A DNA stretch of 64,000 nucleotides from Minisyncoccia bacterium (lineage in GTDB: Bacteria; Patescibacteriota; Minisyncoccia; Phycocordibacterales; Phycocordibacteraceae): the NCBI GenBank assembly GCA_038212075.1, contig JBBQUV010000004.1:12317-76316 (forward strand), read 5' to 3'. Within the stretch, counting starts at the first letter, position 1. Each line of letters opens with the position of its first letter. The position numbers and the translations under genes were made by a program. The notes under the pieces were generated by a model. That model was given only the letters and a program-made list of their open reading frames with translations. It did no database searches and had not been told where the DNA came from. This document shows positions 2,082 to 54,300 of this stretch, in pieces.

Positions 2082-2084
2082 GGT

Positions 2085-3424: not shown

Positions 3425-3425
3425 T

Positions 3426-4502: not shown

Positions 4503-4515
4503 TAAGACGACATAC

Positions 4516-8527: not shown

Positions 8528-8534
8528 TTTTTGC

Positions 8535-9959
8535 ATGAATAAAACCGATATTTTAGAGAAGAAATGGATTAACTATGGACGGTGGACACAGCCGACCATT
8601 TCAGGCGCCTTTTGGACACACTGGGATGAAGCAGAGTGCGCGCGTGAAGTAAGTCAGGACTCTCCGCTCCCGGCGATCGTATTCCTCGACGGGTACCATC
8701 TTACTCCTCTGGATGAAGACCATGCAGTGAAGACTTATTTTAATAAACGATACAGCGAAGGAACGCTTGGAGAATTTCTTGAGAAATTTGAGACATCATC
8801 AAAGAAAAGCGAAGCGCGGATCCTTGCGATTCTTGGCAATACGATGCTTTCTAATGCTGAATACGCACGAGAGCTTTTTGCTGCCTTTCTCGAGGTTGTT
8901 GGCGCGTGGTCATTCCTTTTCCGGTTCTCCACGTCACTTGAAGAAATCGCACGCGAACAAGGACTAGCTGTAAGTGACGACGATATCTTGCGGCATATGC
9001 GTCCCTATACCCGCGTTACGTTGCTCGAGCAGCAGACCATTGAACTTAAAGAATTCGCGCGGGCATTGCGTGCGCAATACCCAGCTATTCCAGTAACAGA
9101 ACTCACTAAACATGTAATGGATGACGCGTCGACGCCCCTTCTCGCTAAAATTCATGATCATGTTCAGGAATTTTCCTGGTTTGGCACACATCACTGGGAA
9201 GGAGAGCCCTACACGCTCGAAAAATGCCTTTCTGATATTCAAGACATACTGAATAAGGGAGGGGATGTGGAAGAGGGATCAGTTGCCGTATCGTCGAGCG
9301 AAGGCGATCAGACCATATGGAAACTTCTCGCAGCTTTTGCATATTGGCGCACCCACTGCGCAGAAGTGAGTGACAAAGCGGCATACCTTTCGCGTGAACG
9401 ACTTACGGATGTGGCAAAGAAATGGAGTATTACCTACGAGGAGCTTACTTGGCTTTCAAGTGGAGAGATTATAAAAGCGCTTGATATAAGTGAGGACTCT
9501 ATTGAGCTCCCCACAAACTTTGCTGAACGAAAAGCTGGATATGGGGCATGGGTTGATAACGGTGTTGAGCATATTGTTGTTGGTGCAGAACTCGCCACAC
9601 TCATTGATGCGGCTGTTCCAAAAGTTGATACTTCCGTGTCTGAGATTAAAGGAACTGTCGCAAGCAAGGGTGGCGTAATTACCGGTATCGCACGCATCAT
9701 TATGGGGCCAAGTGAATTTGCCAGTTTTGTCGCGGGAGATATTTTGGTCGCAAACGAAACCACACCAGACTTCGTTCCGCTTATGAAAAATGCCGCGGCA
9801 ATTGTGACTGATACGGGCGGCATTACTTCTCACGCGGCAATTGTTTCTCGTGAGCTTAAGAAGCCCTGTGTTATAGGCACCAAAATCGCAACGAAAGTAT
9901 TCAAAAATGGCGATATGGTTGAAGTGGATGCAATTAACGGAATTGTCCGAAAGATATAA
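8535..9959 (+). CDS. PEP-utilizer swivel-domain paralog: N-terminal helical domain plus C-terminal phosphohistidine domain.
   Basis: C-terminus GDILVANETTPDFVPLMKNAAAIVTDTGGITSHAAIVSRELKKPCVIGTKIATKVFKNGDMVEVD. The linker LTYEELTWLSSGEIIKALDISEDSIELPTNFAERKAGYGAWVDNGVEHIVVGAE...GVITGIARII and the motif FSWFGTHHWEGEPYT match the others. Confidence 0.75.
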   Translation: MNKTDILEKKWINYGRWTQPTISGAFWTHWDEAECAREVSQDSPLPAIVFLDGYHLTPLDEDHAVKTYFNKRYSEGTLGEFLEKFETSSKKSEARILAILGNTMLSNAEYARELFAAFLEVVGAWSFLFRFSTSLEEIAREQGLAVSDDDILRHMRPYTRVTLLEQQTIELKEFARALRAQYPAIPVTELTKHVMDDASTPLLAKIHDHVQEFSWFGTHHWEGEPYTLEKCLSDIQDILNKGGDVEEGSVAVSSSEGDQTIWKLLAAFAYWRTHCAEVSDKAAYLSRERLTDVAKKWSITYEELTWLSSGEIIKALDISEDSIELPTNFAERKAGYGAWVDNGVEHIVVGAELATLIDAAVPKVDTSVSEIKGTVASKGGVITGIARIIMGPSEFASFVAGDILVANETTPDFVPLMKNAAAIVTDTGGITSHAAIVSRELKKPCVIGTKIATKVFKNGDMVEVDAINGIVRKI

Positions 9960-38428: not shown

Positions 38429-38791
38429 TCAATTTTTCTGTGGTCGTGAACCTACCTCCATCGCCTTCAGAGCGAAATCAACAGCGTCGTCACCCCATAT
38501 AGGTTTCAACATGTTAATGCCACCTCTCCAGCTAACAGCCAGTAAGTCTTCGGCGCTTCCCTTGATGAGCTGTTTGTTGTCTTCAAAGGCGCCGCGCAAG
38601 AACGCTTGAATGGCGTCGGAACTAGTGGCCATTCGTTCGGCGTACTGTTTGCGTTGCCGCTCCAAGAAATCCGCGTCATTTGCCGCAATTTCAAGAAGGG
38701 TACCCCAAAGAAATTCGAGGCCTTTTCGTGCGTTTTCGCACCGCAGTTCGAAAGGAAGACCTTCCGCTGCATACGATTTTATTTCCGTCAC
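38429..38791 (-). CDS. Hypothetical protein (120 aa), probable GTG start.
   Basis: ORF with GGAG 8 nt upstream of a GTG start. No family recognised. Confidence 0.35.
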   Translation of the reverse strand: MTEIKSYAAEGLPFELRCENARKGLEFLWGTLLEIAANDADFLERQRKQYAERMATSSDAIQAFLRGAFEDNKQLIKGSAEDLLAVSWRGGINMLKPIWGDDAVDFALKAMEVGSRPQKN

Positions 38792-38919
38792 CTAACTACT
38801 CCATGTTCAAGTTCATGATTATTTTAAATAAAATCTCATATAAGTCAAGTCGTGTTGCGTACCGTCGCCCGTTTCTCTATACTTCACACACTCGTTTTAT
38901 TAGGGTAACGCTTCAACAT

Positions 38920-39228
38920 ATGGCAAAAACTGAAATGCTTGGAATTACACCGCTCGCAGACCGTGTCGTGGTGCAACCAATGGTCAAAGAAGAAAAGTCG
39001 GTGTCGGGCATTATCATTCCGGATACGGTAAATAAGGAGAAGCCGGCAAAAGGTACGGTGGTTGCCGTAGGTCCGGGGCGTTATACCGATGAAGGGAAGC
39101 GCATTCCTATGGACGTGAAGGTTGGTGACAAGGTTTATTTCAAAAAGCCGTGGGACGAACCTATCAAGATTAATGACATTGAATACTATATCCTTTCCGA
39201 ATCGGAAATCACGCTCACTTTTAAATAA
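38920..39228 (+). CDS. groES: Co-chaperonin GroES.
   Basis: MAKTEMLGITPLADRVVVQPMVKEEKSVSGIIIPDTVNKEKPAKGTVVAVGPGRYTDEGKRIPMDVKVGDKVYFKK is the Cpn10 signature. The ORF-track start at 38680 is an upstream in-frame extension. Confidence 0.9.
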   Translation: MAKTEMLGITPLADRVVVQPMVKEEKSVSGIIIPDTVNKEKPAKGTVVAVGPGRYTDEGKRIPMDVKVGDKVYFKKPWDEPIKINDIEYYILSESEITLTFK

Positions 39229-43454: not shown

Positions 43455-43962
43455 GCGTAAACCTTCATCGCGAGGATTCACGCTTATGGAAATACTCGTG
43501 GTGCTTGTCGTCGTCGGTACCATCGCTAGCTTTTCTTTATTTGTGGACATACGAAATTATCACAGTGACGCGTTTCGTGCTGAACGCACGACGCTTATTA
43601 CTCTACTTCAAACCGCGCGTGCAAACGCACTCAATAACGTAGGTGAAATGCCGCATGGTGTTGCTATTTTCCCGAACGATCACCCAAACAGTTACGTGCT
43701 TTTTGACGGTGCCGATTATGCAACAAGTAATAATTCAACACACCAGATCATCGATGCGGGTTACCACGTGGTGTTTGATGTCGATTCTCCTACGCAAATT
43801 ATTTTTTGTCAGTTAAGCGGCGACATCGTTACCAGTATTCAAGAAAGTACACGCTGTGATGATGCGGTGAATAGGTATGATGGGAAGATAGTTCTTATAG
43901 ATACGGAGAGAGGGCTACCATTTGATATCACACTCAATCATGAAGGCGGTATTAGTTGGTAA
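43426..43962 (+). CDS. Type IV prepilin / pseudopilin (class III signal peptide).
   Basis: Leader MALHKIFIHKRKPSSRG, then FTLMEILVVLVVVGTIASF (the G|FTLxE prepilin peptidase site plus a hydrophobic helix). Confidence 0.65.
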   Translation: MALHKIFIHKRKPSSRGFTLMEILVVLVVVGTIASFSLFVDIRNYHSDAFRAERTTLITLLQTARANALNNVGEMPHGVAIFPNDHPNSYVLFDGADYATSNNSTHQIIDAGYHVVFDVDSPTQIIFCQLSGDIVTSIQESTRCDDAVNRYDGKIVLIDTERGLPFDITLNHEGGISW

Positions 43963-45478
43963 GCACCGAGGGTTTAGTACTCTTGAAATAATGATCGCCC
44001 TTGCGGTGATAGCTATTGTGCTGGCCGGTGTGATTTTGGCAGATTTTGGTGTCCAATACTGGACGGTGACAGCTCAAACCAGCAACGAGGCACTCTACAA
44101 AGGCAAAGTGCAACTTGAAAAAATTCGCTCTGCATCGGTGCATGATTTCTATTCTGCCGTTTCAACTCCGTCTACCAAAGATACCGATACGGCATGCGGT
44201 AGTGGTGGCCTCTGCTACTACATACAAAACACCGTCGCCGATATTTCCCCGTGTTCAAAGTATGTGGAAAGTACCATCTCATGGCAGGTGCCACGCTACC
44301 CAACATCAACCACCTATCTGCCGTCGTATCTTTCAAGTGCCAAAGAAGCTGTTTCTCTTGGTGGAGATTGCGGTCTCAATTATCCGTTTGGCGCGTGGTC
44401 AAGTCCTATCGAAATGAGTAATGGGAACCTTGCCGCTCCACCAACCGGTATTGATGTGGTGAACGGTGTTGCGTATGTTACTGAAAGCACAAGCCCCTAT
44501 TTTGAAGTCACGTCTGTAAGTGCCCCGGGAAGCACCTCGGCACTCGCACCGCCAAGAGATCCAGCATCCTTTAATGCGCTAGACGTGGCTCGCGATTTAG
44601 CAACGGGGCGGTTGTATGCGTATGTCGCCGCAAATAATACGCAATTTCGGGTGATTGATGTCACTAATCCAAAAAGCCCCCTCCAGATAGCAAGTAGTGT
44701 GCTATCTGGAGTAGCAACAAGCACATCGCAAGGGCAGGGATGGCGCATTGTCTACTACGATCGCAAGGTATATCTCACCACTCGGTACAATAGTGGGCTA
44801 CCGGAACTGCATATTTTTGATGTTGGCTACCCTATACGTCCTTTTGAAGTTGGATACGACACCGTAGCAAAAAGACTGGGTATCTCACTTGGCACGTCGG
44901 TGTACGATATGGCGATTCGTGATCAGTATTCAGCCGTCGATAAAAAAATACACCGCTTTTTATTTCTCGCTACAACACTCACTACTGGTGAGCTGAAGGT
45001 GCTTGATGTAAGCGATCCAAAAAAAGTAAACCCAACACCGATTGCCACGTGTGATTTACGTGGAAACTATCAAGCAACTGCCATTACTGTGTTAGGTAAT
45101 ACGCTCTACCTTGGTCGGGATACACCAAGCGGAACGCCAGACCTTCTTGCGTTTGACGCTACTGATCCACTTTCGCCATCGTTCTGTACACCACTTGGCC
45201 AAACGGAAGTAGAGACAGGTTTTTTGGACTACAGTCGCCATGTCGTAGGTATTCGTGCAAGTGGGCCATACCTTTATATAGCCACTACCAACACTACCCG
45301 TGCGCATGGGCAAGTGCAGGTGCGCAGTGTACTTCCGTCCAGTCTTTCACTTCTTGGCACCTTTGCCGTCCCTCTGCTTACGGACAACGCCTTAGACTTT
45401 GATGGCGGTGCCAATATGCTCTATATACCGAGCGGCACGTCTTCAGGAAAACTACAGTCCATCACCAGCTCACCATGA
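43940..45478 (+). CDS. Large minor pilin / pseudopilin (about 512 aa) with an N-terminal prepilin signal and a C-terminal LVIVD-type beta-propeller-like repeat domain. Candidate pilus-tip adhesin.
   Basis: KHRG|FSTLEIMIALAVIAIV prepilin motif. Repeated units such as RLYAYVAANNTQFRVIDVTNPKSP, LKVLDVSDPKKVNPTP and LLAFDATDPLSPSF. Confidence 0.6.
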   Translation: MKAVLVGKHRGFSTLEIMIALAVIAIVLAGVILADFGVQYWTVTAQTSNEALYKGKVQLEKIRSASVHDFYSAVSTPSTKDTDTACGSGGLCYYIQNTVADISPCSKYVESTISWQVPRYPTSTTYLPSYLSSAKEAVSLGGDCGLNYPFGAWSSPIEMSNGNLAAPPTGIDVVNGVAYVTESTSPYFEVTSVSAPGSTSALAPPRDPASFNALDVARDLATGRLYAYVAANNTQFRVIDVTNPKSPLQIASSVLSGVATSTSQGQGWRIVYYDRKVYLTTRYNSGLPELHIFDVGYPIRPFEVGYDTVAKRLGISLGTSVYDMAIRDQYSAVDKKIHRFLFLATTLTTGELKVLDVSDPKKVNPTPIATCDLRGNYQATAITVLGNTLYLGRDTPSGTPDLLAFDATDPLSPSFCTPLGQTEVETGFLDYSRHVVGIRASGPYLYIATTNTTRAHGQVQVRSVLPSSLSLLGTFAVPLLTDNALDFDGGANMLYIPSGTSSGKLQSITSSP

Positions 45479-46047: not shown

Positions 46048-46890
46048 ATGGCGACGAAAAACGTCGTTCTTGAAGGAAAAACGAAACATATTCACCCACT
46101 CGATGTCTTGGTGGAAGCCAAAAACTTCGTGACCTGGGGGAATAAACACTCGGCAGAAATGTCGGGCAAGGGGGAAATGTCGACCAGAACAATGGTGGCG
46201 ATGTTTCGCTTGCTTGAGGCGAACGGCCGCCGGGCGGTTTTTCAAGGGCAAACATCGGCGACGATGTACCGCGCGCGCTTCTCGCACATGATTCTGCTTG
46301 AAGTCGTCGTGCGGTTCCGCAATGAAGAATTAGGTTCGCTCCACAAGCGCCGTCCCGATTTGCCACTTGGACTTTTGCCGAAACCGCTCGTCGAGTTCTA
46401 TCTGAAGTCGAGCGGTGAAGAGTTCGGCGGCGTGAAGTTGCCGGGCGATGACCCGCTCATCACTTCATGGAACGACGAAGGCGTCTTCGTTCATCCGGCG
46501 GGCAAGTCGGTGGAAGGCGATGGCCTGTTCGTTCCTTTTGCGGCGGAAGGATGGTCGTCTGCTCTTTCGGATCTGTTCAGTCTTTTGGCGCGTGAAGCGC
46601 TGATTGACGCGACGATCGTCCGCAAGGGCTGGCTGGCTGTTAAGTGGGATATGGGAGATGTGAAGCTCGAATACGGCTTCGTCATTTCCCATAATAATGG
46701 CGACGCTATTGCGACGCTCTACCTCGCTGAAGCGCCGAGCAATGACGAGTGGCGCATTCGCGACCCGAAAGGCATAGAGCGGAGCAAGCAGAACATCCGC
46801 AACGGTAAACCGGTGAAGGATGCTATCGAGGATTACTTCCTCGTCGCTCGCGCGGCGGAGATGATTCGCTTTAGCAAAGTACACAAATAG
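46048..46890 (+). CDS. SAICAR-synthetase (PurC)-like fold protein with compositionally atypical (higher-GC) sequence.
   Basis: VVLEGKTKHIHPLD (the PurC-like GKTK N-terminus) and HMILLEVVVRFRNEELGSLHKRR (resembling PurC's EVVVRGY..GS motif). GC is about 55-60% versus 43-48% in neighbouring genes. RBS AAGGGAGAG. Confidence 0.45.
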   Translation: MATKNVVLEGKTKHIHPLDVLVEAKNFVTWGNKHSAEMSGKGEMSTRTMVAMFRLLEANGRRAVFQGQTSATMYRARFSHMILLEVVVRFRNEELGSLHKRRPDLPLGLLPKPLVEFYLKSSGEEFGGVKLPGDDPLITSWNDEGVFVHPAGKSVEGDGLFVPFAAEGWSSALSDLFSLLAREALIDATIVRKGWLAVKWDMGDVKLEYGFVISHNNGDAIATLYLAEAPSNDEWRIRDPKGIERSKQNIRNGKPVKDAIEDYFLVARAAEMIRFSKVHK

Positions 46891-46914
46891 TCGCGAAGGC
46901 AACACGAAGAACTG

Positions 46915-46948
46915 AAGACGGCTGCGCAAGCAACCGTCTTCTTTTTAT
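46915..46948 (+). terminator. Rho-independent terminator after the SAICAR-synthase-like gene.
   Basis: gaagacgg (46915-46922), loop, ccgtcttc (46934-46941), then ttttt. Confidence 0.6.
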
Positions 46949-46998
46949 CCCGAGCTGAAAGAAAGACGGTAGTAACTGTATCGTATACTAAAGAGGTA

Positions 46999-49764
46999 AT
47001 GGAGGGAGCATTTGAGGCACCAGCACAACCCTTGCAGAGCCCTGAAGAGGAGCTCGCGTATTTGCGTGCGCAGGTGCAGGCAAAAGAAAAACAGCTTGCG
47101 GCGCTTCAGCAAGAACAACCGCGAGAAGCGATTGTAGAGGAACGCATTTTGCACCATCACCAAGCGGCACCACAAACCGTGCTCGCGCCACAGTACGAAC
47201 TGCCACAAACCGAAGCGCATGCGCTCGCGCTTAATCTTGACCCAGAAGCCGACGACGAAACCATGAGCGAACTTCGTGGGATTATGGAAGAAAAGGGCAT
47301 TAAAAACGCGCTTACTGTTCTTGAAAAATTAAACAGCCCGCACTTGGAGGACGATTTTCATCGGTTTCTTGCCCAATACATTCTTTCTGGAATGCCGGCG
47401 CGCGGGCTTGAAGAAAAGAAACCAGAATGGAAGGCACTTCATATGACGCTCTACGAAATTGCGCTTCCAGAACCGTCTGCGGAAGACGAACAAAATAATC
47501 GCGTCAAGCCGCTCAAAGAGCTTATTTCTGCGATGGAGCAGTTTTATTCAGGAATGCTTTCGGTAGAACACGCCGACCCAAACGAACCATCATATTTTTC
47601 AATGGAGCTTGCGGTGCCTGCAAACCATGCACAACTTTTCTTTTATGTGGGCGTACCAAACCATAAAAAAGACCTCTTTGAGAAACAAATACTTTCCATA
47701 TTTCCAAACGCACGCATCATACCGCAATCAAACGACTACAACATTTTTGTGCCTGATGGCTCAGCGTGCGGGTCGGTGGCTTCGCTTGCCACGTGGCCTG
47801 CACTCCCTCTAAAAGACTACGAAAACTTTGACTACGACCCATTGAATAGTGTGCTCAACGCATTTGCAAAAATAGAAGCAGAAGGAGAAGGTGCGGCGCT
47901 CCAAATTATTATTGAACCAGCAGGAGAGCAATACCACGAGCATTATAGAAAAATCCTCCAAGGGCTTCGCAAGGGAGAGAACCGACTGCGCGCACTTTCA
48001 ACACCAGCTGGCTTGCTCGGAGAGACTGCGCGAGAATTTGGCAGTTTCTTGTTTGGCGCCACCAAAGAAAAGAAAGAAGAATACGAAAATAAAATTCGTA
48101 GTTCCGATATAAACAAATTGGATATAGAGCAAGTGGAGCGCAAAATCGCTACGCCAATCGTGAACACCACTATTCGCATGATTGTCTCATCGTCCGACGC
48201 ACACCGCGCGCAGGCGGGGCTTATAGATCTTGAATCGTCATTCAATCAATTTACAAACACGGTAGGGAACCAGCTTACGTTTAATCGCCCAACTGCATCG
48301 CGTGCAAAGAGTGTTTTCCACGACTTCTCCTACCGGCTCCCATCTTCCACGAAGATGCCCCTTTCTTTGAAGGAAATCACGACCATGTATCACTTCCCAC
48401 CAAAGGGAATAGAATCGACGCCACAATTGAGCCAGTCGCGCTTCACGGCCGCGGCCGCGCCACTTGGTATTCCCCAAGCGGGCACGCTTCTTGGTACCAA
48501 TTCATTCCGTGGAAAGACATCCAACGTATGTCTTGAGCTTGAAGACCGTTTGCGCCACCTCTACATCATTGGACAAACCGGTACTGGTAAAACAGTGTTT
48601 ATGAAAAATCTTGCCATTCAAGATATTCTTGCAGGCAATGGCGTGTGCTTCATTGATCCGCACGGTAACGACATTTTGGATATTCTTGCCGCCATTCCAC
48701 CCGAACGCTATGAAGACGTCATTTATTTTGACCCAGCAGACATCAAACGTCCGTTCGGACTTAATCTTTTGGAATACGATGCCGCGCATCCGGAGCAAAA
48801 AACATTCATCGTGAACGAACTACTCGCCATTTTCCGTCGTTTGTACGGCGATGTTCCTGAGTCTATGGGTCCCGCGTTTGAACAGTACTTCAGAAACGCA
48901 ACGCTTCTCGTGATGGAAGACCCCGCTTCGGGTTCCACTCTGCTCGATGTCGCACGGGTGCTTTCAAACAAACCATTCCGTGATTTGAAGCTCAGCAAGA
49001 GTACCAATCCGGTCATCAATCAATTCTGGCGTGAAATTGCCACACAGGCTGGTGGGGAAGCCTCGCTTGAAAATATCGTGCCCTACATCACCAACAAATT
49101 TGACGACTTCACGGCAAACGATTTTATGCGCCCGATTGTCGGTCAGCAAGAATCGTCCTTTAACTTCCGTGAAGTCATAGATACGAAAAAGATATTGCTC
49201 GTGAATCTTTCAAAGGGTCGCCTTGGTGAACGAAACGCAAACCTGCTAGGGCTTATCTTGGTGGGCAAGCTCTTTATGGCGGCATTGTCGCGTGCCGACG
49301 CCCCCGGTACGCAATTCCCACCATTCTTCTTGTATATCGACGAATTCCAGAACATCACCACCGATTCTATTCCTGGTATTTTGTCGGAAGCCCGCAAATA
49401 CAAGCTTTCCCTCAATATCGCGCACCAATTCCTTGCGCAAGTTGACGAAAAAATTCGCGATGCGGTGTTTGGCAACGTTGGCTCCATGGCAGTATTCCGC
49501 GTCGGGCAGGAAGATGGAGAATTCTTTGAAAAACAATTTGCACCAACCTTTACCGCACTGGATTTTGTGAACATTGAAAACTACAACGCATATATCAAGA
49601 TTCTTGCAAAAGGTGTGCCGCAGAAACCATTTAATATAAAAACACCGGCACCGTTTGCGGGAAATCCAAATCAAATAGATGACCTGCGTGAACTATCATT
49701 CCTTACCTATGGGCGCGACCGTCAACAGGTAGAGAGTATGATTCACGCTCGCTATCTGTCATAA
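46999..49764 (+). CDS. VirD4/TraG/TraD-like type IV coupling-protein-family ATPase (FtsK/HerA clade) with a long N-terminal coiled-coil/acidic region and no obvious TM anchor.
   Basis: Walker A YIIGQTGTGKTVFMKN. Walker B / DEFQN box FFLYIDEFQNITTDSIPGILSEARKYKLSLNIAHQFLAQV (TraG-D_C-like). Downstream FRVGQEDGEFF. 921 aa. Confidence 0.6.
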   Translation: MEGAFEAPAQPLQSPEEELAYLRAQVQAKEKQLAALQQEQPREAIVEERILHHHQAAPQTVLAPQYELPQTEAHALALNLDPEADDETMSELRGIMEEKGIKNALTVLEKLNSPHLEDDFHRFLAQYILSGMPARGLEEKKPEWKALHMTLYEIALPEPSAEDEQNNRVKPLKELISAMEQFYSGMLSVEHADPNEPSYFSMELAVPANHAQLFFYVGVPNHKKDLFEKQILSIFPNARIIPQSNDYNIFVPDGSACGSVASLATWPALPLKDYENFDYDPLNSVLNAFAKIEAEGEGAALQIIIEPAGEQYHEHYRKILQGLRKGENRLRALSTPAGLLGETAREFGSFLFGATKEKKEEYENKIRSSDINKLDIEQVERKIATPIVNTTIRMIVSSSDAHRAQAGLIDLESSFNQFTNTVGNQLTFNRPTASRAKSVFHDFSYRLPSSTKMPLSLKEITTMYHFPPKGIESTPQLSQSRFTAAAAPLGIPQAGTLLGTNSFRGKTSNVCLELEDRLRHLYIIGQTGTGKTVFMKNLAIQDILAGNGVCFIDPHGNDILDILAAIPPERYEDVIYFDPADIKRPFGLNLLEYDAAHPEQKTFIVNELLAIFRRLYGDVPESMGPAFEQYFRNATLLVMEDPASGSTLLDVARVLSNKPFRDLKLSKSTNPVINQFWREIATQAGGEASLENIVPYITNKFDDFTANDFMRPIVGQQESSFNFREVIDTKKILLVNLSKGRLGERNANLLGLILVGKLFMAALSRADAPGTQFPPFFLYIDEFQNITTDSIPGILSEARKYKLSLNIAHQFLAQVDEKIRDAVFGNVGSMAVFRVGQEDGEFFEKQFAPTFTALDFVNIENYNAYIKILAKGVPQKPFNIKTPAPFAGNPNQIDDLRELSFLTYGRDRQQVESMIHARYLS

Positions 49765-49771
49765 TGTATAT

Positions 49772-52750
49772 ATGAAAATCGGTGGCTTTAACATTCCTCC
49801 AAGAAAACCAAAAGACGATAAAGAACCGGAAGATCTTCGCGGTAATAGAGACTCACTTCCGGAGCTTGGTGGCATGTCGCCCGCTGATTTTAGGAATCAA
49901 CCACTGCCCGCACCCCAAGAAGCAAATATTTCTCCTGCAGATTTTCGTAGAGAAAGAGACGGTGGTGAGGCACCACCTATTCGCCCAGAAGACAAGCTTG
50001 GCGCCGGCGCAAGCGCTGAAGAAGTTAAGGTCGCCGTTGCTGACATTCTTGCGGAAGAAAAACCATCAGCAGATACTCGTTCTGAAAACCAAAAACGCTC
50101 AGAGCGCGGGGAATCCTACTCTGCAGACTGGGCAGGCTCGGGTAAAAGTCCTGCTGAAGTAATTGCCTTGAAGCAACGTCTTGAATCGCTCGTGGGTGCG
50201 GTGCAAGCAAAAACAAAAAAATGGAAAGAAGACTCTGAGGCCAAAAGTAAGGCAAAGAAAGAGGCAAAAACAAAGAAAGCAAGTGATAAGGCTACTGCCA
50301 AAACACAAAAAGTCGATGCTAAAGAGTCGGCAAAGAAAGAAAAGACCGACAGGAAATCTGCAAAAGAAAGTGTTAATGCTGAAAAAAAGGAAAAAATAAA
50401 ACAAGAACGTATTGAAGCGGTAGACGGCAAGCCGGGCGTGAAAGAAGCAAAACGTAGCGAACTTGCTGACAAGGCAGGCGCAAAGCTTGAGCGAGAGAAT
50501 ATGATAAGTGCAGAAAAAGAATATTTTGCAGAATACAAAACATTTATCACGAAAAATGGCGTTACTAAGCGTCTTTTCAAGAACGTTTTTAATACCAAGG
50601 ATGCCGACCTGCTTGCGAAATTTAAAAACAACTACGACGACGCTCGTGCGCTCTACACTAAACGTCTGCGTCAAACAGTGACTGATCGCGTGGATGAAAA
50701 ATTTGGCATCACTGAATACGACGAAAATAATAACCCTCTCGGAGAGGAGAAGGTTCTGGAGAAGCGAAACAGGATGATTGAGAAATACATGGCGGTTCAG
50801 CGCTTCAACGACGTCATTACTCGTGCGGCAGAAGGACGTACTGAAGCACGAAAGGAAGCGCTGAATGAGCGCGGCAAAGGAACGCTTCGCAAAATGGGAG
50901 ACAAAATCGGCGAATGGAACCGAAACTTGGAAAAGAAATATGGCAAAAGAAATGCCCGCATCATTCGCCTTCTTGGAAGCACTGCCGCGGCATCTGCGCT
51001 CTTTTCACTTAGCGGTGGCGTTGGAGTGCTTGGGTATGCGGCCGGTAAGGTGACGCGTGGGCTCATTAGTATGACCGCCGGTTCAACGGTGGGTGGTATC
51101 GCTGGTCTTGGTTACACCCATACGATAGGAAAATTGATGGAGTATCAGTTGGCACGCACTCGTCGCAGTCAAGGCTCCGGCGCAAATCAAATTCAAAAAG
51201 AGGAACGTGCCCATCGTATCGGAAATAAAAAAGCGATTGAAAAACAACGAATGGTGGTTGAACTTCTTACGGGCGTTGGCCTGTCGTACGAAACCGCAAC
51301 GCATCTTGCTACGGTCGACATAATGCAACACACTGCCGCTTCGGTGAACCACGGTGGTTCAGTACAGTGGGGTGATCATCACAAACCATCAACGATTTCT
51401 TCTAGTCACTCAGCAGGTTCAGAATCCGCTCCAGTGCAATCACATGAATCAAACGGCAGTAACGCCGATTCATCCACGGCGGATACAAACACCGCACCAA
51501 GCGATACGGTTTCTGGCGGAGGCACGCCACCTGCTGACGCTGGAACGGGTGGGGAAACAAGTACCACAGCCCCAAGCCCAGATGATTTTAAATCCATACC
51601 AGAAGGTTCAGATGCTGTAGGAACAGATGGGGCCGCACCTCCGTCTATAGAAAATGCATTGAATTTGCATACTGAAGTGCACGCAGGACAGGGCGCAAAC
51701 CAAGTGTGGGGCGATTTCAAAGAACAGTTGCGAGATAGTGGTGTGCTCAACGATCCAAACACTTCGCCTGAAGCACGCGCCGCAATTCAACACATTCTTG
51801 ATTCAAAACCGGGAGCTCTTTCATCCGAATACGGTTTTGCAACAGAAAACGCGAGCGCGGTGATTCACACAGGGGATTCCATTGATGTCGCGCAAAACGG
51901 GGATATTGTGTTCACTCCACATCATGGTGAAGGAATTGTGCTTGCACACACCGATGCCGACGGCACGGTGCATCCGGCAGACCATTCCGACCTTACAATG
52001 AAGCCAAATCACCCGGTGATTTCTGAGAAACACACTCCACAGCACACCGTTCACCACACACCACACACGACGTCTGTCGATAGTCCGGAAAGTTTGGCCC
52101 AAGTGAAGGCAATCTACGAGTGGGAACACGCTCACCCAGGCGAACCTATTCCACAGAACCTCTACCTTCACACAGACGTCTCTCCACCAGCTCCAGAAAA
52201 TGTTCCAACGCAATCACCGGAAGTTTCTCCAACTCATTCTGATGTCGCGCCACTTCCGCCAACGCATACTGAATTACCTCCACCAGCACCACAAGCAGAT
52301 CTTCTTTCCCGTATTGAATCAGCTCAATCTCCAGAGTCTGTGCGTAGTATTCTTGATGCTGAAATACACGCCCACGGCGTAACGCCTGCATTGATGGCAG
52401 ATCTTATAAAAGAAGCTCCACACATGCCAGCAAACCCGCACCTTGCTTCATATATTGATATTGACTCGAGCGGAACATTGCCCGGCCCAGCTGTATTTCT
52501 GGGTCACGATGGACAGCTAACGGTGTATGGTGCTGCAGATGCCGGTAGTACGTACGAAGCACAACTTAAATTAGCGCACAGCTTTGCCGGAACGTCTGGT
52601 CAACCGGTCAACGTGCTTTTTGCGGATCATTCGCCTGGCCACGTGAAAGTGTATCCGGATGGACACGTAGAAGGGGTTACTAAAGGATTCTTTAGCTCAT
52701 ATCAGCCGCCGGAACCTCTTCAAAAATCAGTATATGTATTTCAACGCTAA
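49772..52750 (+). CDS. Very large (992 aa) low-complexity protein: Lys/Glu-rich charged region, a central Gly-rich hydrophobic segment, then a Ser/Thr/Pro/His-rich disordered region and a C-terminal globular part.
   Basis: Region 1 AKKEAKTKKASDKATAKTQKVDAKESAKKEK. Region 2 LLGSTAAASALFSLSGGVGVLGYAAGKVTRGLISMTAGSTVGGIAGLGY. Region 3 SSSHSAGSESAPVQSHESNGSNADSSTADTNTAPSDTVSGGGTPPADAGTGG and PTHTELPPPAPQ. Confidence 0.5.
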   Translation: MKIGGFNIPPRKPKDDKEPEDLRGNRDSLPELGGMSPADFRNQPLPAPQEANISPADFRRERDGGEAPPIRPEDKLGAGASAEEVKVAVADILAEEKPSADTRSENQKRSERGESYSADWAGSGKSPAEVIALKQRLESLVGAVQAKTKKWKEDSEAKSKAKKEAKTKKASDKATAKTQKVDAKESAKKEKTDRKSAKESVNAEKKEKIKQERIEAVDGKPGVKEAKRSELADKAGAKLERENMISAEKEYFAEYKTFITKNGVTKRLFKNVFNTKDADLLAKFKNNYDDARALYTKRLRQTVTDRVDEKFGITEYDENNNPLGEEKVLEKRNRMIEKYMAVQRFNDVITRAAEGRTEARKEALNERGKGTLRKMGDKIGEWNRNLEKKYGKRNARIIRLLGSTAAASALFSLSGGVGVLGYAAGKVTRGLISMTAGSTVGGIAGLGYTHTIGKLMEYQLARTRRSQGSGANQIQKEERAHRIGNKKAIEKQRMVVELLTGVGLSYETATHLATVDIMQHTAASVNHGGSVQWGDHHKPSTISSSHSAGSESAPVQSHESNGSNADSSTADTNTAPSDTVSGGGTPPADAGTGGETSTTAPSPDDFKSIPEGSDAVGTDGAAPPSIENALNLHTEVHAGQGANQVWGDFKEQLRDSGVLNDPNTSPEARAAIQHILDSKPGALSSEYGFATENASAVIHTGDSIDVAQNGDIVFTPHHGEGIVLAHTDADGTVHPADHSDLTMKPNHPVISEKHTPQHTVHHTPHTTSVDSPESLAQVKAIYEWEHAHPGEPIPQNLYLHTDVSPPAPENVPTQSPEVSPTHSDVAPLPPTHTELPPPAPQADLLSRIESAQSPESVRSILDAEIHAHGVTPALMADLIKEAPHMPANPHLASYIDIDSSGTLPGPAVFLGHDGQLTVYGAADAGSTYEAQLKLAHSFAGTSGQPVNVLFADHSPGHVKVYPDGHVEGVTKGFFSSYQPPEPLQKSVYVFQR

Positions 52751-52760
52751 TTAATTTGTT

Positions 52761-53057
52761 ATGACTGAGACAAAACAAAATGAAATAATTGCCGCTCTCG
52801 GGCTTGAGTTTATGTCTGCTGAAGAACAGGAAGCCACACTTCTAAAACTTGGAGAACTTATAGCACAAGGCACACAGGTGCGTTTGGTAGAGCGAATGGA
52901 CGATGCGACAAGAGACGCCTTTAGCAAACTTCTTTCGAGCAATGCTTCGGAAGAGGAAGTCCATGCCTTTATAAGCGAACATGTGTCCACAGAAGATGAG
53001 GCGGTAAAGGAGACTATTGACGAACTTGCGGATGATATACTTGCCGTAACCAAATAA
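52761..53057 (+). CDS. Small acidic hypothetical protein (98 aa).
   Basis: ORF with a D/E-rich composition. No family recognised. Confidence 0.35.
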   Translation: MTETKQNEIIAALGLEFMSAEEQEATLLKLGELIAQGTQVRLVERMDDATRDAFSKLLSSNASEEEVHAFISEHVSTEDEAVKETIDELADDILAVTK

Positions 53058-53068
53058 TAATAAGACAT

Positions 53069-53578
53069 ATGAACGTTACCGGTACCGGAGTCGCCATTGG
53101 CACAGCAGTTGTAGTCGCGCTCGCGTTTCTCTTTTTTGGGCCATCAATCCTTAGACCATTTTCAGCACAACCAACGACACAACCTATGACCGATCAAACA
53201 GCAACCGCAGATGCCGCACAACCAGCAGAGCAGGCTCCAGATCCAACAACACTTCAGGTGAATGATACTAAGGTGGGCACAGGTGCAATAGCGGCGGCAG
53301 GCGACACCATCACGGTGAATTATGTTGGTGCCCTTACTGACGGCACGGTGTTTGACGCTTCAGAAAAGCACGGCCAACCATTCAGCTTTACTCTCGGTGC
53401 GGGACAAGTTATTCAGGGCTGGGATCAGGGTATTGTGGGTATGAAAGAGGGAGGCGAGCGCATTTTGGTGATTCCAGCTTCAATGGGATACGGCGCTCAC
53501 GCCACAGGACCAATTCCTGCAAACTCAGCACTTATTTTCAAAGTTGATCTTGTGAAGGTTCAAAAGGGGAGTAAGTAG
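53069..53578 (+). CDS. FKBP-type peptidyl-prolyl cis-trans isomerase with an N-terminal membrane anchor.
   Basis: FKBP_C signature: TVNYVGALTDGTVFDASEKHGQPFSFTLGAGQVIQGWDQGIVGMKEGGERILVIPASMGYG...IPANSALIFKVDL. Confidence 0.85.
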   Translation: MNVTGTGVAIGTAVVVALAFLFFGPSILRPFSAQPTTQPMTDQTATADAAQPAEQAPDPTTLQVNDTKVGTGAIAAAGDTITVNYVGALTDGTVFDASEKHGQPFSFTLGAGQVIQGWDQGIVGMKEGGERILVIPASMGYGAHATGPIPANSALIFKVDLVKVQKGSK

Positions 53579-53581
53579 TAT

Positions 53582-53620
53582 AAAAAAGAGCGCGCATCTT
53601 GTTAGGATGCGCGCTCAAAG
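53582..53620. terminator. Bidirectional terminator between the FKBP gene (+) and the convergent lipoprotein gene (-).
   Basis: aaaaaa, gagcgcgcatc (53588-53598), loop ttgttag, gatgcgcgctc (53606-53616). Confidence 0.6.
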
Positions 53621-53643
53621 ACGACGGCTGCGGCTGTTGGCGA

Positions 53644-54174
53644 TTAATGCCGAAGTTCGGCATCCACCTTGGCCTGGATCTCGTCCCAGTGTTCCGTGCG
53701 ACCGGTGTACGCCACCAGGCCCATATATTCCTCCTGCATCTTCGGATCGCGACCGAAGCCATACATCAGGGCTTCGACGGAGGCCCGGAACAGCACCACG
53801 TTATACGTCAGTGCAGTGCCGAGGCCAGAGCCCCCCACTTCGCCGCCGACAATTTCCATCGACTGCTTGAGCGGGTTGCCCGTCACGCCGGCGAGGAAAT
53901 AGCCAGCGGTGGTTCCCGCCAACGTGGCCGCTGTATTGATGACACCCATGTAGGTGGCCTCATCCCGGCCGGGGTTGGCGTAGTCCGCCATTGCTATGGC
54001 GCGCACAAAGTCTTTGTGCACGCATTCGTTGTTGGGATGCGGCAGGCCGCGGCAGGCCGAGACAACCTCGGTCCAAGCAAAGCCCATGTTGTCCTGCGTT
54101 GGAACGTTGTGTGCACAGGCCGAAAGGGCGACTGCGACTGCGAGGACTGCTCCCCGCTTCAGATTATTGGACAT
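53644..54174 (-). CDS. Putative lipoprotein (176 aa) in a markedly higher-GC segment.
   Basis: Signal peptide plus lipobox VAVALSAC. Gly-rich segment GYFLAGVTGNPLKQSMEIVGGEVGGSGLG. Sampled windows are 58-63% GC. Confidence 0.55.
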   Translation of the reverse strand: MSNNLKRGAVLAVAVALSACAHNVPTQDNMGFAWTEVVSACRGLPHPNNECVHKDFVRAIAMADYANPGRDEATYMGVINTAATLAGTTAGYFLAGVTGNPLKQSMEIVGGEVGGSGLGTALTYNVVLFRASVEALMYGFGRDPKMQEEYMGLVAYTGRTEHWDEIQAKVDAELRH

Positions 54175-54271
54175 GAGAACAATCCCTATAATTGCGGCTC
54201 GTGCGCTGACTTTTCAGCACACATAACCAAGAACTTTGAGTTCGAGAGTATTATATACCTCTATATACTAC

Positions 54272-54300
54272 TTGTCAAGGGGTCTAAAAGCCCGTAGATA
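54272..54300 (+). promoter_or_regulatory. Candidate promoter for tgt.
   Basis: TTGTCA (54272-54277), a 17-nt spacer, then TAGATA (54295-54300), about 36 nt upstream of the tgt ATG. Confidence 0.3.

What the first reader, a model, noticed from the sequence alone, without database searches (positions are those of the whole stretch)
46999..52750. VirD4/TraG-like coupling-ATPase without a membrane anchor, followed by a 992-aa low-complexity membrane protein, directly downstream of the pilus operon
The 921-aa protein has the Walker A (GQTGTGKT) and the DEFQN...ARKYKLSLNIAHQ box typical of TraG/TraD/VirD4 coupling proteins. But it starts with about 450 aa of coiled-coil/acidic sequence and has no predicted TM helices.

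It is followed 8 nt later by a 992-aa protein with three regions. The first is a KEAK-type charged region. The second is a central Gly-rich hydrophobic segment. The third is a long S/T/P/H-rich disordered region.

Together with the adjacent T4P genes this looks like a DNA-translocation or cell-cell transfer module (natural competence or conjugation-like) rather than housekeeping. No other T4SS core genes (VirB4/B6/B8-10, relaxase) are present in the window.
Basis: partly seen in the sequence, partly recalled or inferred. Interest (0 to 1): 0.65.

Follow-up and report, generated by a model that had tools for sequence, protein, structure and literature searches.

The report
Anchorless VirD4/VirB4-like ATPase with partner
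This is a conserved chromosomal gene of ultrasmall Patescibacteria that encodes a secretion-type motor ATPase (a VirD4-like engine behind a VirB4-like front domain, with no membrane anchor), co-transcribed with a fast-evolving membrane protein; its position next to pilus genes is a coincidence, and its function has not been tested.

Summary
Both ORFs are real: 46999-49764 (921 aa) and 49772-52750 (992 aa), 7 nt apart. The window is a Paceibacteria (Patescibacteria) chromosome.

**ATPase**
- It belongs to a very large family: PF26449/DUF8128 plus a T4CP-type ATPase, with 5,331 50%-identity clusters at E≤1e-30.
- The ATPase half is closest in sequence to the coupling proteins TrwB and DotL and to plasmid T4CP-like proteins.
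- The supposed "coiled-coil/acidic" N-terminus is a ~145-aa helical extension followed by a conserved globular domain. That domain's only significant PDB fold matches are the VirB4 (TrwK) N-terminal domain.
- Most relatives (69 of 75) carry one N-terminal TM helix. This subfamily has lost it.
- The gene is under housekeeping-level constraint: 66% mean identity, against 75% for TGT and 80% for UvrB. Its synteny is conserved (partner, DUF5663, membrane-anchored FKBP, TGT, UvrB).

**Partner**
- The 992-aa protein has very divergent positional homologues in about 50 of 66 close-clade species, but none in more distant relatives.
- It keeps a conserved C-terminal tail.

**Pilus link and status**
- Pilus genes lie within 10 kb in only about 4 of roughly 90 loci, and a terminator-like hairpin separates them here.
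- No T4SS or relaxase genes are nearby.
- A 2025 survey already counted such "T4CP homologues" in Patescibacteria. The function remains untested.

Verdict: new variant of a known kind, moderate interest.

The parts
46914..46948 (+). Terminator-like hairpin (GAAGACGG...CCGTCTTC, stem 46914-46941) followed by TTTTTAT. It separates the pilus/PurC-like genes from the ATPase gene.
   Evidence: Read directly. The scan lists the same palindrome on the minus strand. On the plus strand the stem has one C-A mismatch.
46984..46996 (+). TATACT (-10-like, 46984-46989) and AAAGAGG ribosome-binding site (46990-46996), just before the ATG at 46999.
   Evidence: Read directly. These are consensus resemblances only.
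46999..49764 (+). 921-aa ATPase gene, a member of the DUF8128 + T4CP-type ATPase family.
46999..47433 (+). N-terminal ~145-aa helical extension. It is specific to the Paceibacteria-type subfamily and takes the place of the TM helix seen in relatives.
   Evidence: Helices 15-129 in the model. It is conserved. 16 cluster representatives share it, while 69 of 75 others have a TM helix instead.
47434..48408 (+). DUF8128 domain (aa ~146-470) with a VirB4-N-terminal-domain-like fold.
   Evidence: Model pLDDT 87.8, pTM 0.86. All 14 PDB matches at E<=0.001 are TrwK/VirB4. PF26449 is annotated on the identical protein P0001.
48481..49761 (+). FtsK/HerA-superfamily P-loop ATPase domain of the VirD4/TraG/TrwB type (aa ~495-921).
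48571..48594 (+). Walker A motif, GQTGTGKT (aa 525-532).
   Evidence: Residues are invariant. The motif aligns to the TrwB P-loop.
49330..49353 (+). Walker B region, LYIDEFQN (aa 778-785).
   Evidence: Y779-N785 are invariant. The region aligns to TrwB LFIDEL.
49390..49428 (+). ARKYKLSLNIAHQ box (aa 798-810; TraG-D_C region).
49772..52750 (+). 992-aa partner gene: a fast-evolving membrane-associated protein that is conserved in position.
49772..50953 (+). Partner aa 1-394: a K/E/R-rich, net-positive, probably cytoplasmic region. Its last ~150 aa (aa 240-394) are a conserved helical segment.
   Evidence: Composition. Alignment to L002 at E=3e-13. Conservation map.
50954..51139 (+). Partner aa 395-456: a pair of Gly/Ala-rich hydrophobic segments, the putative membrane-spanning region. 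It is preceded by 9 K/R in 25 aa.
   Evidence: It is only weakly hydrophobic here (KD 1.38-1.54) but reaches 2.3 in homologues.
51329..51646 (+). Partner aa 520-625: S/T/G/P-rich acidic linker.
51665..51988 (+). Partner aa 632-739: conserved small globular segment.
   Evidence: Match to L001 at E=2e-13. Highest alignment occupancy.
52673..52747 (+). Partner C-terminal tail (aa 968-992). The family consensus is [PI]-[DNS]-P-x-x-[FL]-x-[KR]-[RKQ]-[LIV] at the extreme C-terminus.
   Evidence: Present in 27 of 50 complete members against 2.6% of control windows. The window copy (…QPPEPLQKSVYVFQR) is a divergent version.
52761..53057 (+). DUF5663 small acidic protein (98 aa), 10 nt after the partner.
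   Evidence: Conserved downstream in 19-20 related loci.
53069..53578 (+). FKBP-type PPIase with an N-terminal TM helix and a linker, so probably extracytoplasmic. It is the last gene of the putative operon.
   Evidence: It lies downstream of the ATPase in 56 of 86 loci.
53588..53616 (.). Strong GC-rich hairpin (11 bp, 8 GC) between FKBP and the convergent minus-strand gene.

Best explanation
**What it is (shown).** The 921-aa gene is a chromosomal, vertically inherited member of the Patescibacteria 'DUF8128 + T4CP-like ATPase' family. It has three parts:
- a ~145-aa helical N-terminal extension;
- a globular domain whose predicted fold resembles the N-terminal domain of VirB4, the part that in type IV secretion systems docks the ATPase on small membrane subunits;
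- a P-loop motor domain of the VirD4/TraG/TrwB type, with intact and invariant Walker A, Walker B and C-terminal motifs.

It heads its own putative operon: ATPase, 992-aa membrane protein, DUF5663, membrane-anchored FKBP foldase.

**How it most likely works (inferred).**
- By analogy with TrwB, VirB4 and HerA, it assembles into a ring-shaped NTPase at the cytoplasmic face of the membrane. There it uses ATP to move or assemble a macromolecular substrate across or at the envelope.
- The ancestral single TM helix has been lost in this subfamily. Membrane association would then come from protein partners.
- In this subclade the co-transcribed 992-aa protein is the best candidate partner. It has a positively charged cytoplasmic N-half, a Gly-rich hydrophobic segment and a long acidic S/T/P-rich C-half.
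- Whether the motor feeds the chromosomal MPF-FATA-like T4SS of Patescibacteria or works on its own cannot be decided here.

The neighbouring type IV pilus genes are not part of the system.
For: **Family and architecture**
- The identical protein carries PF26449 + PF01935, and there are more than 3,000 close hits, nearly all from Patescibacteria.
- The family has 5,331 clusters at E<=1e-30, and most align from query residue ~140 to the end.
- phrog_5156 matches aa 148-918 at 4e-76.

**Motor type**
- TrwB and DotL are the best solved relatives.
- The relative P0146 passes the Pfam thresholds for T4SS-DNA_transf and TrwB_AAD_bind.
- 418 plasmid T4CP-like matches were found. One of them sits in a Bacillus conjugation module.

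**VirB4-like front domain**
- The full-length model's best PDB hits are TrwK/VirB4 over ~940 columns (E=7.6e-13), against 433 columns for TrwB.
- For the domain-only model, all 14 matches at E<=0.001 are VirB4.

**Loss of the anchor**.

**Core-gene behaviour**
- Mean identity is 66%, against TGT 75%, UvrB 80% and FKBP 55%.
- Synteny with FKBP/TGT/UvrB holds in 45-56 of 86 loci.
- GC content is uniform.
- Only 2 viral contigs carry a relative.

**Operon and partner**
- Intergenic gaps are 7, 10 and 11 nt, and hairpins flank the unit.
- A large ORF with a mid-protein hydrophobic peak follows the ATPase in most close-clade loci.
- Those ORFs form one family.

**Pilus link rejected**.

**Literature**: 5,713 VirD4-type homologues were found in 2,918 Patescibacteria genomes. 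Only 148 lie near virB4, relaxases are nearly absent, and the authors raise exaptation (PMC12102498).
Against: - No experiment exists for any family member.
- For this particular protein the Pfam T4CP models are below threshold (TraG-D_C 21.1 bits against 22; TrwB_AAD_bind 12.4 against 20.5) or absent.
- The VirB4 similarity rests on predicted structures with TM-scores of only 0.38-0.46. It has no sequence support: TIGR00929 matches at E=0.012 on the P-loop only, no VirB4 chain appears, and a Bacillus VirB4-like protein is not significant.
- The ATPase half of the full-length model has only moderate confidence (pLDDT ~45-85).
- The partner is missing next to the same anchorless ATPase in about 8 close-clade loci and in the whole 50-55% clade. 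It therefore cannot be a universal obligate anchor, unless it is encoded elsewhere.
- The partner's membrane topology is unresolved.
- According to PMC12102498, the t4cp homologue of Ca. S. epibionticum was not essential while the T4SS genes were. That argues against a simple role as an obligatory T4SS subunit.
Confidence: 0.5

Rival explanations
1. Dedicated exporter reading. The 992-aa protein is the substrate of the ATPase, not its anchor. The motor recognises the conserved C-terminal tail of its hypervariable neighbour, as T4CPs recognise C-terminal signals. It then drives export or insertion of that protein, and the membrane-anchored FKBP folds it outside the cell.
For: - The partner is extremely variable (15-24% identity).
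- It still keeps a conserved extreme C-terminal peptide: 27 of 50 members against 2.6% of controls.
- Its C-half is acidic and S/T/P-rich, as in surface proteins.
- An FKBP with an N-terminal TM helix is conserved downstream.
- The ATPase persists without the partner in some genomes. That is easier to explain for a substrate than for a structural subunit.
Against: - No translocation channel has been identified.
- The window's own tail is a divergent copy of the motif.
- A conserved C-terminus could equally be a folding or binding element.
- Nothing links the tail to the ATPase experimentally or computationally.
- The FKBP linkage also holds where the partner is absent, so it may simply be inherited synteny.
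Confidence: 0.15
2. The ATPase and partner work with the adjacent type IV pilus as a DNA-uptake or conjugation-like DNA transfer module.
For: - The pair is adjacent to the pilus genes in the window.
- T2SSE/PilC lie 1.2 kb downstream in L070.
- ComF-like and PilM genes lie downstream in L087 and L095.
- T4CP-type motors translocate DNA in conjugation.
Against: - Only 1 of 66 close-clade loci (the window's own lineage) and about 4 of roughly 90 loci overall have pilus genes within 10 kb. That is close to the ~4% expected by chance in a 0.6-1 Mb genome.
- The orientation and position of the pilus genes differ in each case.
- A PurC-like gene and a terminator-like hairpin separate them here.
- No relaxase, ComEC or T4SS gene is nearby.
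Confidence: 0.08
3. Cytoplasmic nucleic-acid motor reading. The protein is a HerA/FtsK-like DNA translocase or helicase used in repair, segregation or defence, with no envelope role.
For: - DUF87/HerA is the only Pfam family above threshold for this protein (25.4 bits).
- HerA structures are good fold matches.
- PADLOC mad8 matches at 3e-11.
- The protein is soluble.
- UvrB and UvrA lie in the conserved neighbourhood.
Against: - The DUF87 match covers only the P-loop (aa 506-556).
- Most family members are TM-anchored.
- The N-domain matches VirB4, not the HerA HAS barrel.
- There is no NurA, Sir2 or nuclease partner.
- FtsK_SpoIIIE scores only 11.8 bits.
- Adjacency to UvrB is shared with unrelated housekeeping genes such as TGT and FKBP.
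Confidence: 0.12
4. Mobile-element remnant reading. The pair is a decaying piece of an integrated conjugative element or prophage.
For: - There is a PHROG family match.
- Plasmid homologues of the ATPase half exist.
- A haloarchaeal megaplasmid carries a homologue with both domains.
Against: - The same chromosomal position recurs in dozens of species.
- Sequence constraint is at housekeeping level.
- There is no GC anomaly.
- There is no integrase, relaxase or repeat boundary.
- Only 2 viral contigs have a relative, and both match the ATPase half only.
Confidence: 0.03

Closest known systems
Type IV coupling proteins (VirD4 / TraG / TraD / TrwB / DotL)
   Same: - The P-loop motor domain has the same Walker A, Walker B and C-terminal 'RK...Q' motifs.
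- These are the best sequence relatives among solved structures.
- The whole soluble part of TrwB aligns structurally (433 columns).
- Relatives in the same family pass the Pfam T4SS-DNA_transf and TrwB_AAD_bind thresholds.
   Different: - There is no TM domain.
- A ~325-aa DUF8128 domain and a ~145-aa helical extension precede the motor.
- No relaxase or mating-pair-formation genes are nearby.
- The gene is chromosomal and vertically inherited, under housekeeping-level constraint.
- For this protein itself, the Pfam T4CP models are below threshold.
VirB4 (TrwK of plasmid R388)
   Same: - It has the same two-domain layout of roughly 800-900 aa: an N-terminal alpha/beta domain plus a C-terminal FtsK/HerA-type ATPase.
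- It gives the best full-length PDB fold matches.
- It gives all 14 PDB matches at E<=0.001 for the DUF8128 domain alone.
- Like VirB4, the protein is soluble and presumably docks on membrane partners.
   Different: - There is no detectable sequence similarity to VirB4 profiles beyond the P-loop.
- TM-scores are below 0.5.
- There are no VirB3, VirB6 or VirB8 neighbours.
- Patescibacteria encode a separate, canonical VirB4, usually near dnaA (PMC12102498).
'T4CP homologues' of Patescibacteria surveyed by Quinonero-Coronel et al. 2025 (PMC12102498)
   Same: - They are VirD4-type homologues found in about 96% of Patescibacteria genomes.
- They are mostly encoded away from virB4 and without relaxases.
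- The authors raise possible exaptation.
- The window protein fits that description, as do the PGAP names of its close homologues ('type IV secretory system conjugative DNA transfer family protein', 'TraM recognition domain-containing protein').
   Different: - The paper does not describe the DUF8128 domain, its VirB4-like fold, the anchorless subfamily or the conserved operon with the hypervariable membrane protein.
- I could not run the CONJScan profiles, so whether this exact protein is in their count is inferred, not tested.
ATPase-only T4CP-like 'DUF87' proteins of Gram-positive plasmids (for example the Bacillus subtilis 27-kb plasmid CP121709.1)
   Same: - They show 28% identity over about 90% of the motor domain.
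- They also lack a TM anchor.
   Different: - They are only ~400 aa, with no DUF8128 domain.
- They are embedded in a conjugation module with a relaxase-like gene and a VirB4-like gene.
HerA / FtsK-SpoIIIE translocases
   Same: - They belong to the same superfamily of ring-forming P-loop pumps.
- DUF87 matches above threshold, and HerA structures are fold matches.
   Different: - The matches are restricted to the P-loop or the core.
- There is no HAS barrel, no NurA or Sir2 partner, no FtsK gamma domain and no FtsK TM domain.

Membership tests
DUF8128 (PF26449)-containing T4CP-like ATPases | Presence of the PF26449 domain N-terminal to a DUF87/TraG-type P-loop domain. | tested here: met
   The precomputed Pfam annotation for the 100%-identical protein P0001 is PF26449 + PF01935. 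phrog_5156 matches aa 148-918 at E=4e-76. The family aligns from aa ~140 to the end. The local Pfam copy did not report PF26449.
Type IV coupling protein (VirD4/TraG/TrwB) | N-terminal transmembrane domain anchoring the hexamer in the membrane. | tested here: not met
   The maximum KD19 is 1.53, inside the ATPase core, and there is no N-terminal hydrophobic segment. 69 of 75 other family representatives have one TM helix.
Type IV coupling protein (VirD4/TraG/TrwB) | Nucleotide-binding domain with T4CP-type Walker A/B and C-terminal motifs, recognisable by T4CP profiles. | tested here: inconclusive
   The motifs are present and invariant. TrwB and DotL are the best solved relatives. For this protein, TraG-D_C scores 21.1 bits against a cut-off of 22, TrwB_AAD_bind scores 12.4 against 20.5, and T4SS-DNA_transf does not match. 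The relative P0146 passes two of these models. The CONJScan t4cp profiles were not available.
Type IV coupling protein (VirD4/TraG/TrwB) | All-alpha domain inserted in the nucleotide-binding domain. | tested here: inconclusive
   The model shows a helical insertion at aa ~599-728, between Walker A and Walker B, but at low to moderate pLDDT. Foldseek aligns 433 columns to the 417-residue TrwB chain.
Type IV coupling protein (VirD4/TraG/TrwB) | Genetic association with a relaxase and/or mating-pair-formation (VirB4, VirB6, VirB8) genes. | tested here: not met
   No such Pfam family was found in the 49 scanned ORFs of the window, nor in the annotated loci L001, L002, L004, L006, L087-L089 and L095-L098. 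The rest of the genome could not be examined.
VirB4 | Two-domain architecture: VirB4-type N-terminal domain plus C-terminal ATPase. | tested here: met
   This holds at the level of predicted structure only. The full-length model best matches TrwK over ~940 columns. For the domain-only model, all 14 matches at E<=0.001 are TrwK (E=1.3e-5 to 4.8e-4, TMq 0.38-0.46).
VirB4 | Sequence match to VirB4 profiles (TIGR00929, PF03135 CagE_TrbE_VirB). | tested here: not met
   TIGR00929 matches at E=0.012, 13.9 bits, against a cut-off of 643 and on the P-loop only. PF03135 does not match. No VirB4 chain is found in the PDB profile search.
HerA | HAS-barrel N-terminal domain, HerA ATPase core, and a NurA/Sir2/nuclease partner. 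| tested here: not met
   DUF87 matches only aa 506-556. The N-domain fold search gives VirB4, not HerA. There is no nuclease neighbour.
FtsK/SpoIIIE | A match to the FtsK_SpoIIIE motor profile, an N-terminal polytopic membrane domain and a gamma domain. | tested here: not met
   PF01580 scores 11.8 bits against a cut-off of 24, over aa 519-538 only. There are no TM segments.
Type IV pilus / competence system accessory | Conserved co-location with pilus or competence genes across relatives. | tested here: not met
   T2SSE/PilC lie within 10 kb in 1 of 86 loci, plus L087 and L095 among the 7 TM-anchored loci. This is about the chance level.

The most novel reading that the evidence does not exclude
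The ATPase is the motor of a so far undescribed, T4SS-independent, Patescibacteria-core export device. In this reading it is a soluble hybrid of a VirB4-like docking domain and a VirD4-like engine. It recognises the conserved C-terminal tail of its hypervariable neighbour and drives that large surface protein across the membrane, and a dedicated membrane-anchored FKBP then folds it. This would amount to a single-substrate secretion system for rapidly evolving host-interaction proteins of epibiotic bacteria.
Probability: 0.1. Interest if true: 0.8.

Novelty: new variant of a known kind. Interest (0 to 1): 0.45.

Why it matters
- Patescibacteria make up a large share of bacterial diversity and depend on contact with host cells. 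Their T4SS is essential in the one species tested, yet its role is unknown (PMC11665869, PMC12857230).
- A VirD4-type ATPase that is almost universal in the phylum, is as conserved as housekeeping enzymes, and is encoded away from the T4SS genes is an obvious unexplained component.
- Three observations here give concrete, testable handles on what this motor does:
  - its uncharacterised DUF8128 domain looks like the VirB4 docking domain;
  - one large subfamily has exchanged the membrane helix for a soluble extension;
  - it is co-transcribed with a hypervariable membrane protein and an exported foldase.
- These points bear on whether the motor serves the T4SS or a separate machine.
- The finding also corrects a tempting but unsupported link to type IV pili and competence.

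Tried and rejected
1. **Pilus linkage.** Tested by tblastn of the window's pilus proteins against 86 related loci. Rejected: 1 of 86.
2. **Shared 'FVDxDG' motif.** I looked for it between the partner proteins and the C-terminal extensions fused to distant ATPases. Rejected: 1 of 55.
3. **Rosetta-stone fusion.** I tested whether the long (1,200-2,000 aa) relatives are fusions with the partner. The partner HMM finds nothing in them, and their extensions are Ala/Pro/Gly-rich low complexity with no Pfam domain.
4. **Origin of the N-terminal extension.** I tested whether it derives from the small ORF found upstream of all 7 TM-anchored relatives.
   - hmmsearch was not significant.
   - The first hhalign run gave probability 0.8%.
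   - With better profiles the score was 20.7 (P=0.012), above all 30 shuffles (maximum 17.4), but the probability was only 3.5%.
   - I keep this as a lead, not a result.
5. **Partner family against Pfam and PDB.** No domain was found in 49 members. PDB gave only weak hits prone to compositional bias: pyocin S5, TolA and ClyA-family toxins. I do not rely on these.
6. **Partner topology.** Hydrophobicity and positive-inside counts were inconclusive, giving 1-3 segments.
7. **Partner-like gene in the 50-55% clade.** Absent. The neighbours there are NDK, an antiporter and DnaG.
8. **Phage or mobile-element origin.** Only 2 viral contigs matched, on the ATPase half only.
10. **Look-ups that found nothing.** The look-up of encoding contigs found no record for the exact protein, and the sources give it no name.

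Full report
**1. Observation**

The two ORFs exist as described: 46999-49764 (+, 921 aa) and 49772-52750 (+, 992 aa). They are separated by 7 nt.

They are almost invariant across 58 homologues.
- A Kyte-Doolittle scan finds no TM-grade segment in the ATPase. The maximum is 1.53, at aa 745-768, in the core strand/helix before Walker B.
- The 992-aa protein has the three composition zones described.
- One part of the description is wrong. The first ~450 aa of the ATPase are not low-complexity coiled coil. Invariant columns start at R23, and residues ~146-470 fold into a confidently predicted globular domain.

**2. Context and organism**

The window is a housekeeping stretch of a small genome. 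The scanned ORFs encode:
- PEP-utilising paralogues, RseP, ProRS/HisRS-type synthetase, MreB/MreC, PBPs, MraW, a Mur ligase, LysRS and HhH glycosylases;
- RNase J, GroES/GroEL and a pilus block (T2SSE, PilC, three prepilins);
- a PurC-like gene, the gene pair, DUF5663, FKBP, TGT, UvrB, a histidine kinase and UvrA.

There are no tRNA or Rfam hits, and GC is uniform at 0.45-0.53. Close homologues of the ATPase come from Paceibacterota, Parcubacteria and Kaiserbacteria MAGs. None of the 49 scanned window ORFs carries a T4SS or relaxase family.

**3. The ATPase family**

- The word-indexed search gave more than 3,000 hits. The top 120 clusters are all 67-82% identical over the full length, and the precomputed Pfam annotation is PF26449 (DUF8128) with or without PF01935 and PF12696.
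- The exhaustive search of 50%-identity representatives gave 5,331 clusters at E<=1e-30. Most are ~800 aa and align from query residue ~140-200 to the C-terminus. DUF8128 plus ATPase is therefore the conserved core, and the first ~145 aa are specific to one subfamily.
- Of 75 representatives without that extension, 69 have a single strongly hydrophobic helix right before DUF8128. The lack of an anchor in the window protein is thus real and derived.
- A member of the TM-anchored subfamily (P0146, Wolfebacteria) passes the Pfam thresholds for T4SS-DNA_transf and TrwB_AAD_bind.
- The window protein itself only reaches DUF87 (25.4 bits, P-loop only) and a just-sub-threshold TraG-D_C.
- A profile of both subfamilies finds TrwB (1.6e-6) and DotL (4.8e-5) as the best solved relatives, followed by HerA. 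It finds no VirB4.
- The ATPase half matches 418 plasmid records at 27-35% identity. These are annotated as T4SS DNA-binding, TraM-recognition or DUF87 proteins. One is a 412-aa anchorless protein inside a Bacillus conjugation module with relaxase-like and VirB4-like genes.
- The DUF8128 half has no plasmid match except in a 1258-aa haloarchaeal 'TraG/TraD/VirD4 family protein'. The family HMM confirms that protein in both halves, at i-E 2.3e-11 and 1.1e-18.

**4. Structure**

- The full-length model has mean pLDDT 69, with the N-domain at 80-93. Its best PDB matches are TrwK/VirB4 of R388 over ~940 columns (E=7.6e-13). TrwB and HerA align only to the ATPase half.
- I modelled the N-domain alone from a more diverse alignment (pLDDT 87.8, pTM 0.86). 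It has 14 PDB matches at E<=0.001, and all 14 are TrwK/VirB4 chains (TMq 0.38-0.46). The next class, chlorite-dismutase-like double ferredoxin folds, starts at E=5e-3.
- I conclude that the protein combines a VirB4-N-terminal-domain-like module with a motor that is VirD4-like by sequence.
- This rests on predicted structures and TM-scores below 0.5. No sequence method supports the VirB4 link.

**5. Synteny**

I collected 80 loci from distinct GTDB species plus loci from exact-protein look-ups.

- tblastn with the window's proteins shows that FKBP (56 of 86), TGT (50) and UvrB (45) lie downstream in nearly all relatives at 62% identity or more. T2SSE/PilC occur within 10 kb in only one locus, L070.
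- Among 7 loci of the TM-anchored subfamily, two have a ComF-like gene and PilM downstream.
- That gives about 4 of roughly 90 loci, in different arrangements. This is what chance gives when a ~12-kb pilus cluster sits in a 0.6-1 Mb genome.
- In the window, a PurC-like ORF and a hairpin plus T-run (46914-46948) lie between the pilus genes and the ATPase.
- Mean identity to the window proteins in the close clade is 66% for the ATPase, 80% for UvrB, 75% for TGT, 55% for FKBP, 43% for DUF5663 and 27% (local segments only) for the partner.
- The ATPase therefore behaves as a vertically inherited core gene. Only 2 viral contigs encode a relative, and both match only the ATPase half.

**6. The partner**

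- The 992-aa protein found only itself in the word-indexed search.
- However, the ORFs that follow the ATPase in relatives (638 aa in L001, 1267 aa in L002) match different parts of it at E~1e-13.
- In the close clade most loci have a 450-1267-aa ORF starting -35 to +67 nt from the ATPase stop, with a mid-protein hydrophobic peak.
- An iterative HMM started from the window protein recruits 52-54 of these ORFs. Pairwise identity to the window protein is 15-24%.
- The best conserved parts are the helical stretch plus hydrophobic pair (aa ~340-460), a small globular segment (aa ~632-739) and the extreme C-terminus.
- The C-terminal consensus [PI]-[DNS]-P-x-x-[FL]-x-[KR]-[RKQ]-[LIV] occurs in 27 of 50 complete members, against 2.6% of control windows.
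- No Pfam domain occurs in any of 49 members.
- About 8 close-clade loci have FKBP directly after the ATPase, and the whole 50-55% clade lacks the partner at this position.
- Topology is unresolved. The N-half is net positive with 9 K/R just before the hydrophobic block. The C-half is net negative and S/T/P-rich, which favours N-in/C-out. The number of membrane passes (1-3) cannot be fixed.

**7. Operon**

The gaps between ATPase, partner, DUF5663 and FKBP are 7, 10 and 11 nt, and a strong hairpin follows FKBP. The FKBP has an N-terminal TM helix and a linker, so it is probably an extracytoplasmic foldase.

**8. Literature**

- Quinonero-Coronel et al. 2025 (PMC12102498) found VirB4 in 2,417 of 3,035 Patescibacteria genomes, typically near dnaA.
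- They found 5,713 VirD4-type T4CP homologues in 2,918 genomes, of which only 148 lie near virB4. They found almost no relaxases.
- They note that the t4cp homologue of Ca. S. epibionticum was not essential although the T4SS genes were, and they suggest possible exaptation.
- No paper in the library mentions DUF8128.
- Reviews state that the role of the Patescibacteria T4SS is unknown (PMC11665869 and PMC12857230).

**9. Interpretation**

*Shown:*
- family membership;
- a VirD4-type motor;
- a VirB4-like fold for DUF8128 (from predicted structures);
- derived loss of the anchor;
- core-gene behaviour;
- a conserved operon with a hypervariable membrane protein in one subclade;
- no conserved pilus, T4SS or relaxase linkage.

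*Inferred:*
- a ring-forming NTPase working at the membrane on a macromolecular substrate;
- membrane recruitment through protein partners, of which the 992-aa protein is the local candidate;
- a possible but unproven connection to the chromosomal T4SS.

*Rivals:*
- the partner is a substrate recognised through its C-terminal tail;
- a cytoplasmic HerA-like DNA motor;
- a mobile-element remnant.

**10. Verdict**

This is a real and correctly spotted gene pair. The family is already catalogued (Pfam DUF8128, PGAP names, the 2025 survey) but uncharacterised. The link to the pilus is not supported. Three features are new relative to the literature I could search: the VirB4-like front domain, the anchorless subfamily, and the conserved four-gene unit. 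I rate it a new variant of a known kind, with interest 0.45.

Noticed in passing
window 27-9959 (+): A tandem array of at least five ORFs that each end in a PEP-utilizers mobile domain (PF00391): 27-2081 (which also has PPDK_N), 2085-3107, 4441-6171, 6947-8527 and 8496-9959. A Pfam-less ORF and a weak His_Phos_1 ORF are interleaved. This is an unusual paralogue expansion for a reduced genome.
   Followed up: no
window 53588-54297: The + strand ORF 53599-54297 (TTG start, no Pfam) is probably spurious. Relatives have a minus-strand gene after FKBP. The minus-strand ORF 53644-54174 starts with a lipoprotein-like signal (…AVALSAC…) and is followed by the strong hairpin plus T-run at 53616-53588.
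   Followed up: partly
window 43922-45478 (+): One of the three prepilin-like genes encodes a 518-aa protein with an N_methyl motif and an LVIVD repeat. It is a very large pilin-like protein, possibly a tip or adhesin subunit. The pilus block in the window has one T2SSE ATPase and PilC. No PilM/N/O or prepilin peptidase was found among the ORFs scanned.
   Followed up: no
L087:9602-9997, L088:9557-9985, L089:9491-9901, L095:1061-1468, L096:1099-1497, L097:1096-1494, L098:1040-1480: All 7 loci of the TM-anchored DUF8128-ATPase subfamily have a conserved Pfam-less soluble ORF (131-146 aa) 3-32 nt upstream of the ATPase. This ORF shares a 'G[IV]…[SG]P.[IVL].D.[FLY]HDAL' motif with residues 98-126 of the window ATPase. 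hhalign gives score 20.7 and P=0.012, above all 30 shuffles, but probability only 3.5%.
   Followed up: partly
P0180, P0183 and similar proteins (1,200-2,000 aa): Some TM-anchored family members carry 800-1,200-aa Ala/Pro/Gly-rich C-terminal extensions with no Pfam domain. These end in a conserved 'KKLAPGEV[YF]VDE[TR]GNV[VI]IGE' peptide.
   Followed up: partly
L092:8872-12648 (Natrinema zhouii plasmid NZ_CP084884.1): A 1258-aa haloarchaeal 'TraG/TraD/VirD4 family protein' has both the DUF8128 domain (i-E 2.3e-11) and the ATPase (i-E 1.1e-18) of the family, plus a ~490-aa C-terminal extension. It sits among metabolic genes, with no obvious transfer genes within 9 kb.
   Followed up: partly
L004:9608-9946, L019, L023, L025, L026, L055, L059 (upstream of the ATPase): A ~110-aa protein with a predicted four or five TM segments (annotated Phage_holin_4_2, PF04020, in L001, L002 and L004) lies immediately upstream of the ATPase in at least 7 distinct species, and two or three genes upstream in L001 and L002. 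The window has no homologue.
   Followed up: partly
window 46048-46890 (+): The ORF between the pilus genes and the ATPase matches SAICAR synthetase only in its N-terminal 120 aa. It is nevertheless a conserved full-length neighbour of the ATPase in several relatives, for example L020 at 39% identity over 274 aa. It looks like a divergent PurC-like protein.
   Followed up: partly
window 38680-39228 (+): The GroES ORF as listed (TTG start, 182 aa) has the Cpn10 domain only at aa 89-178. The true start is probably further downstream.
   Followed up: no
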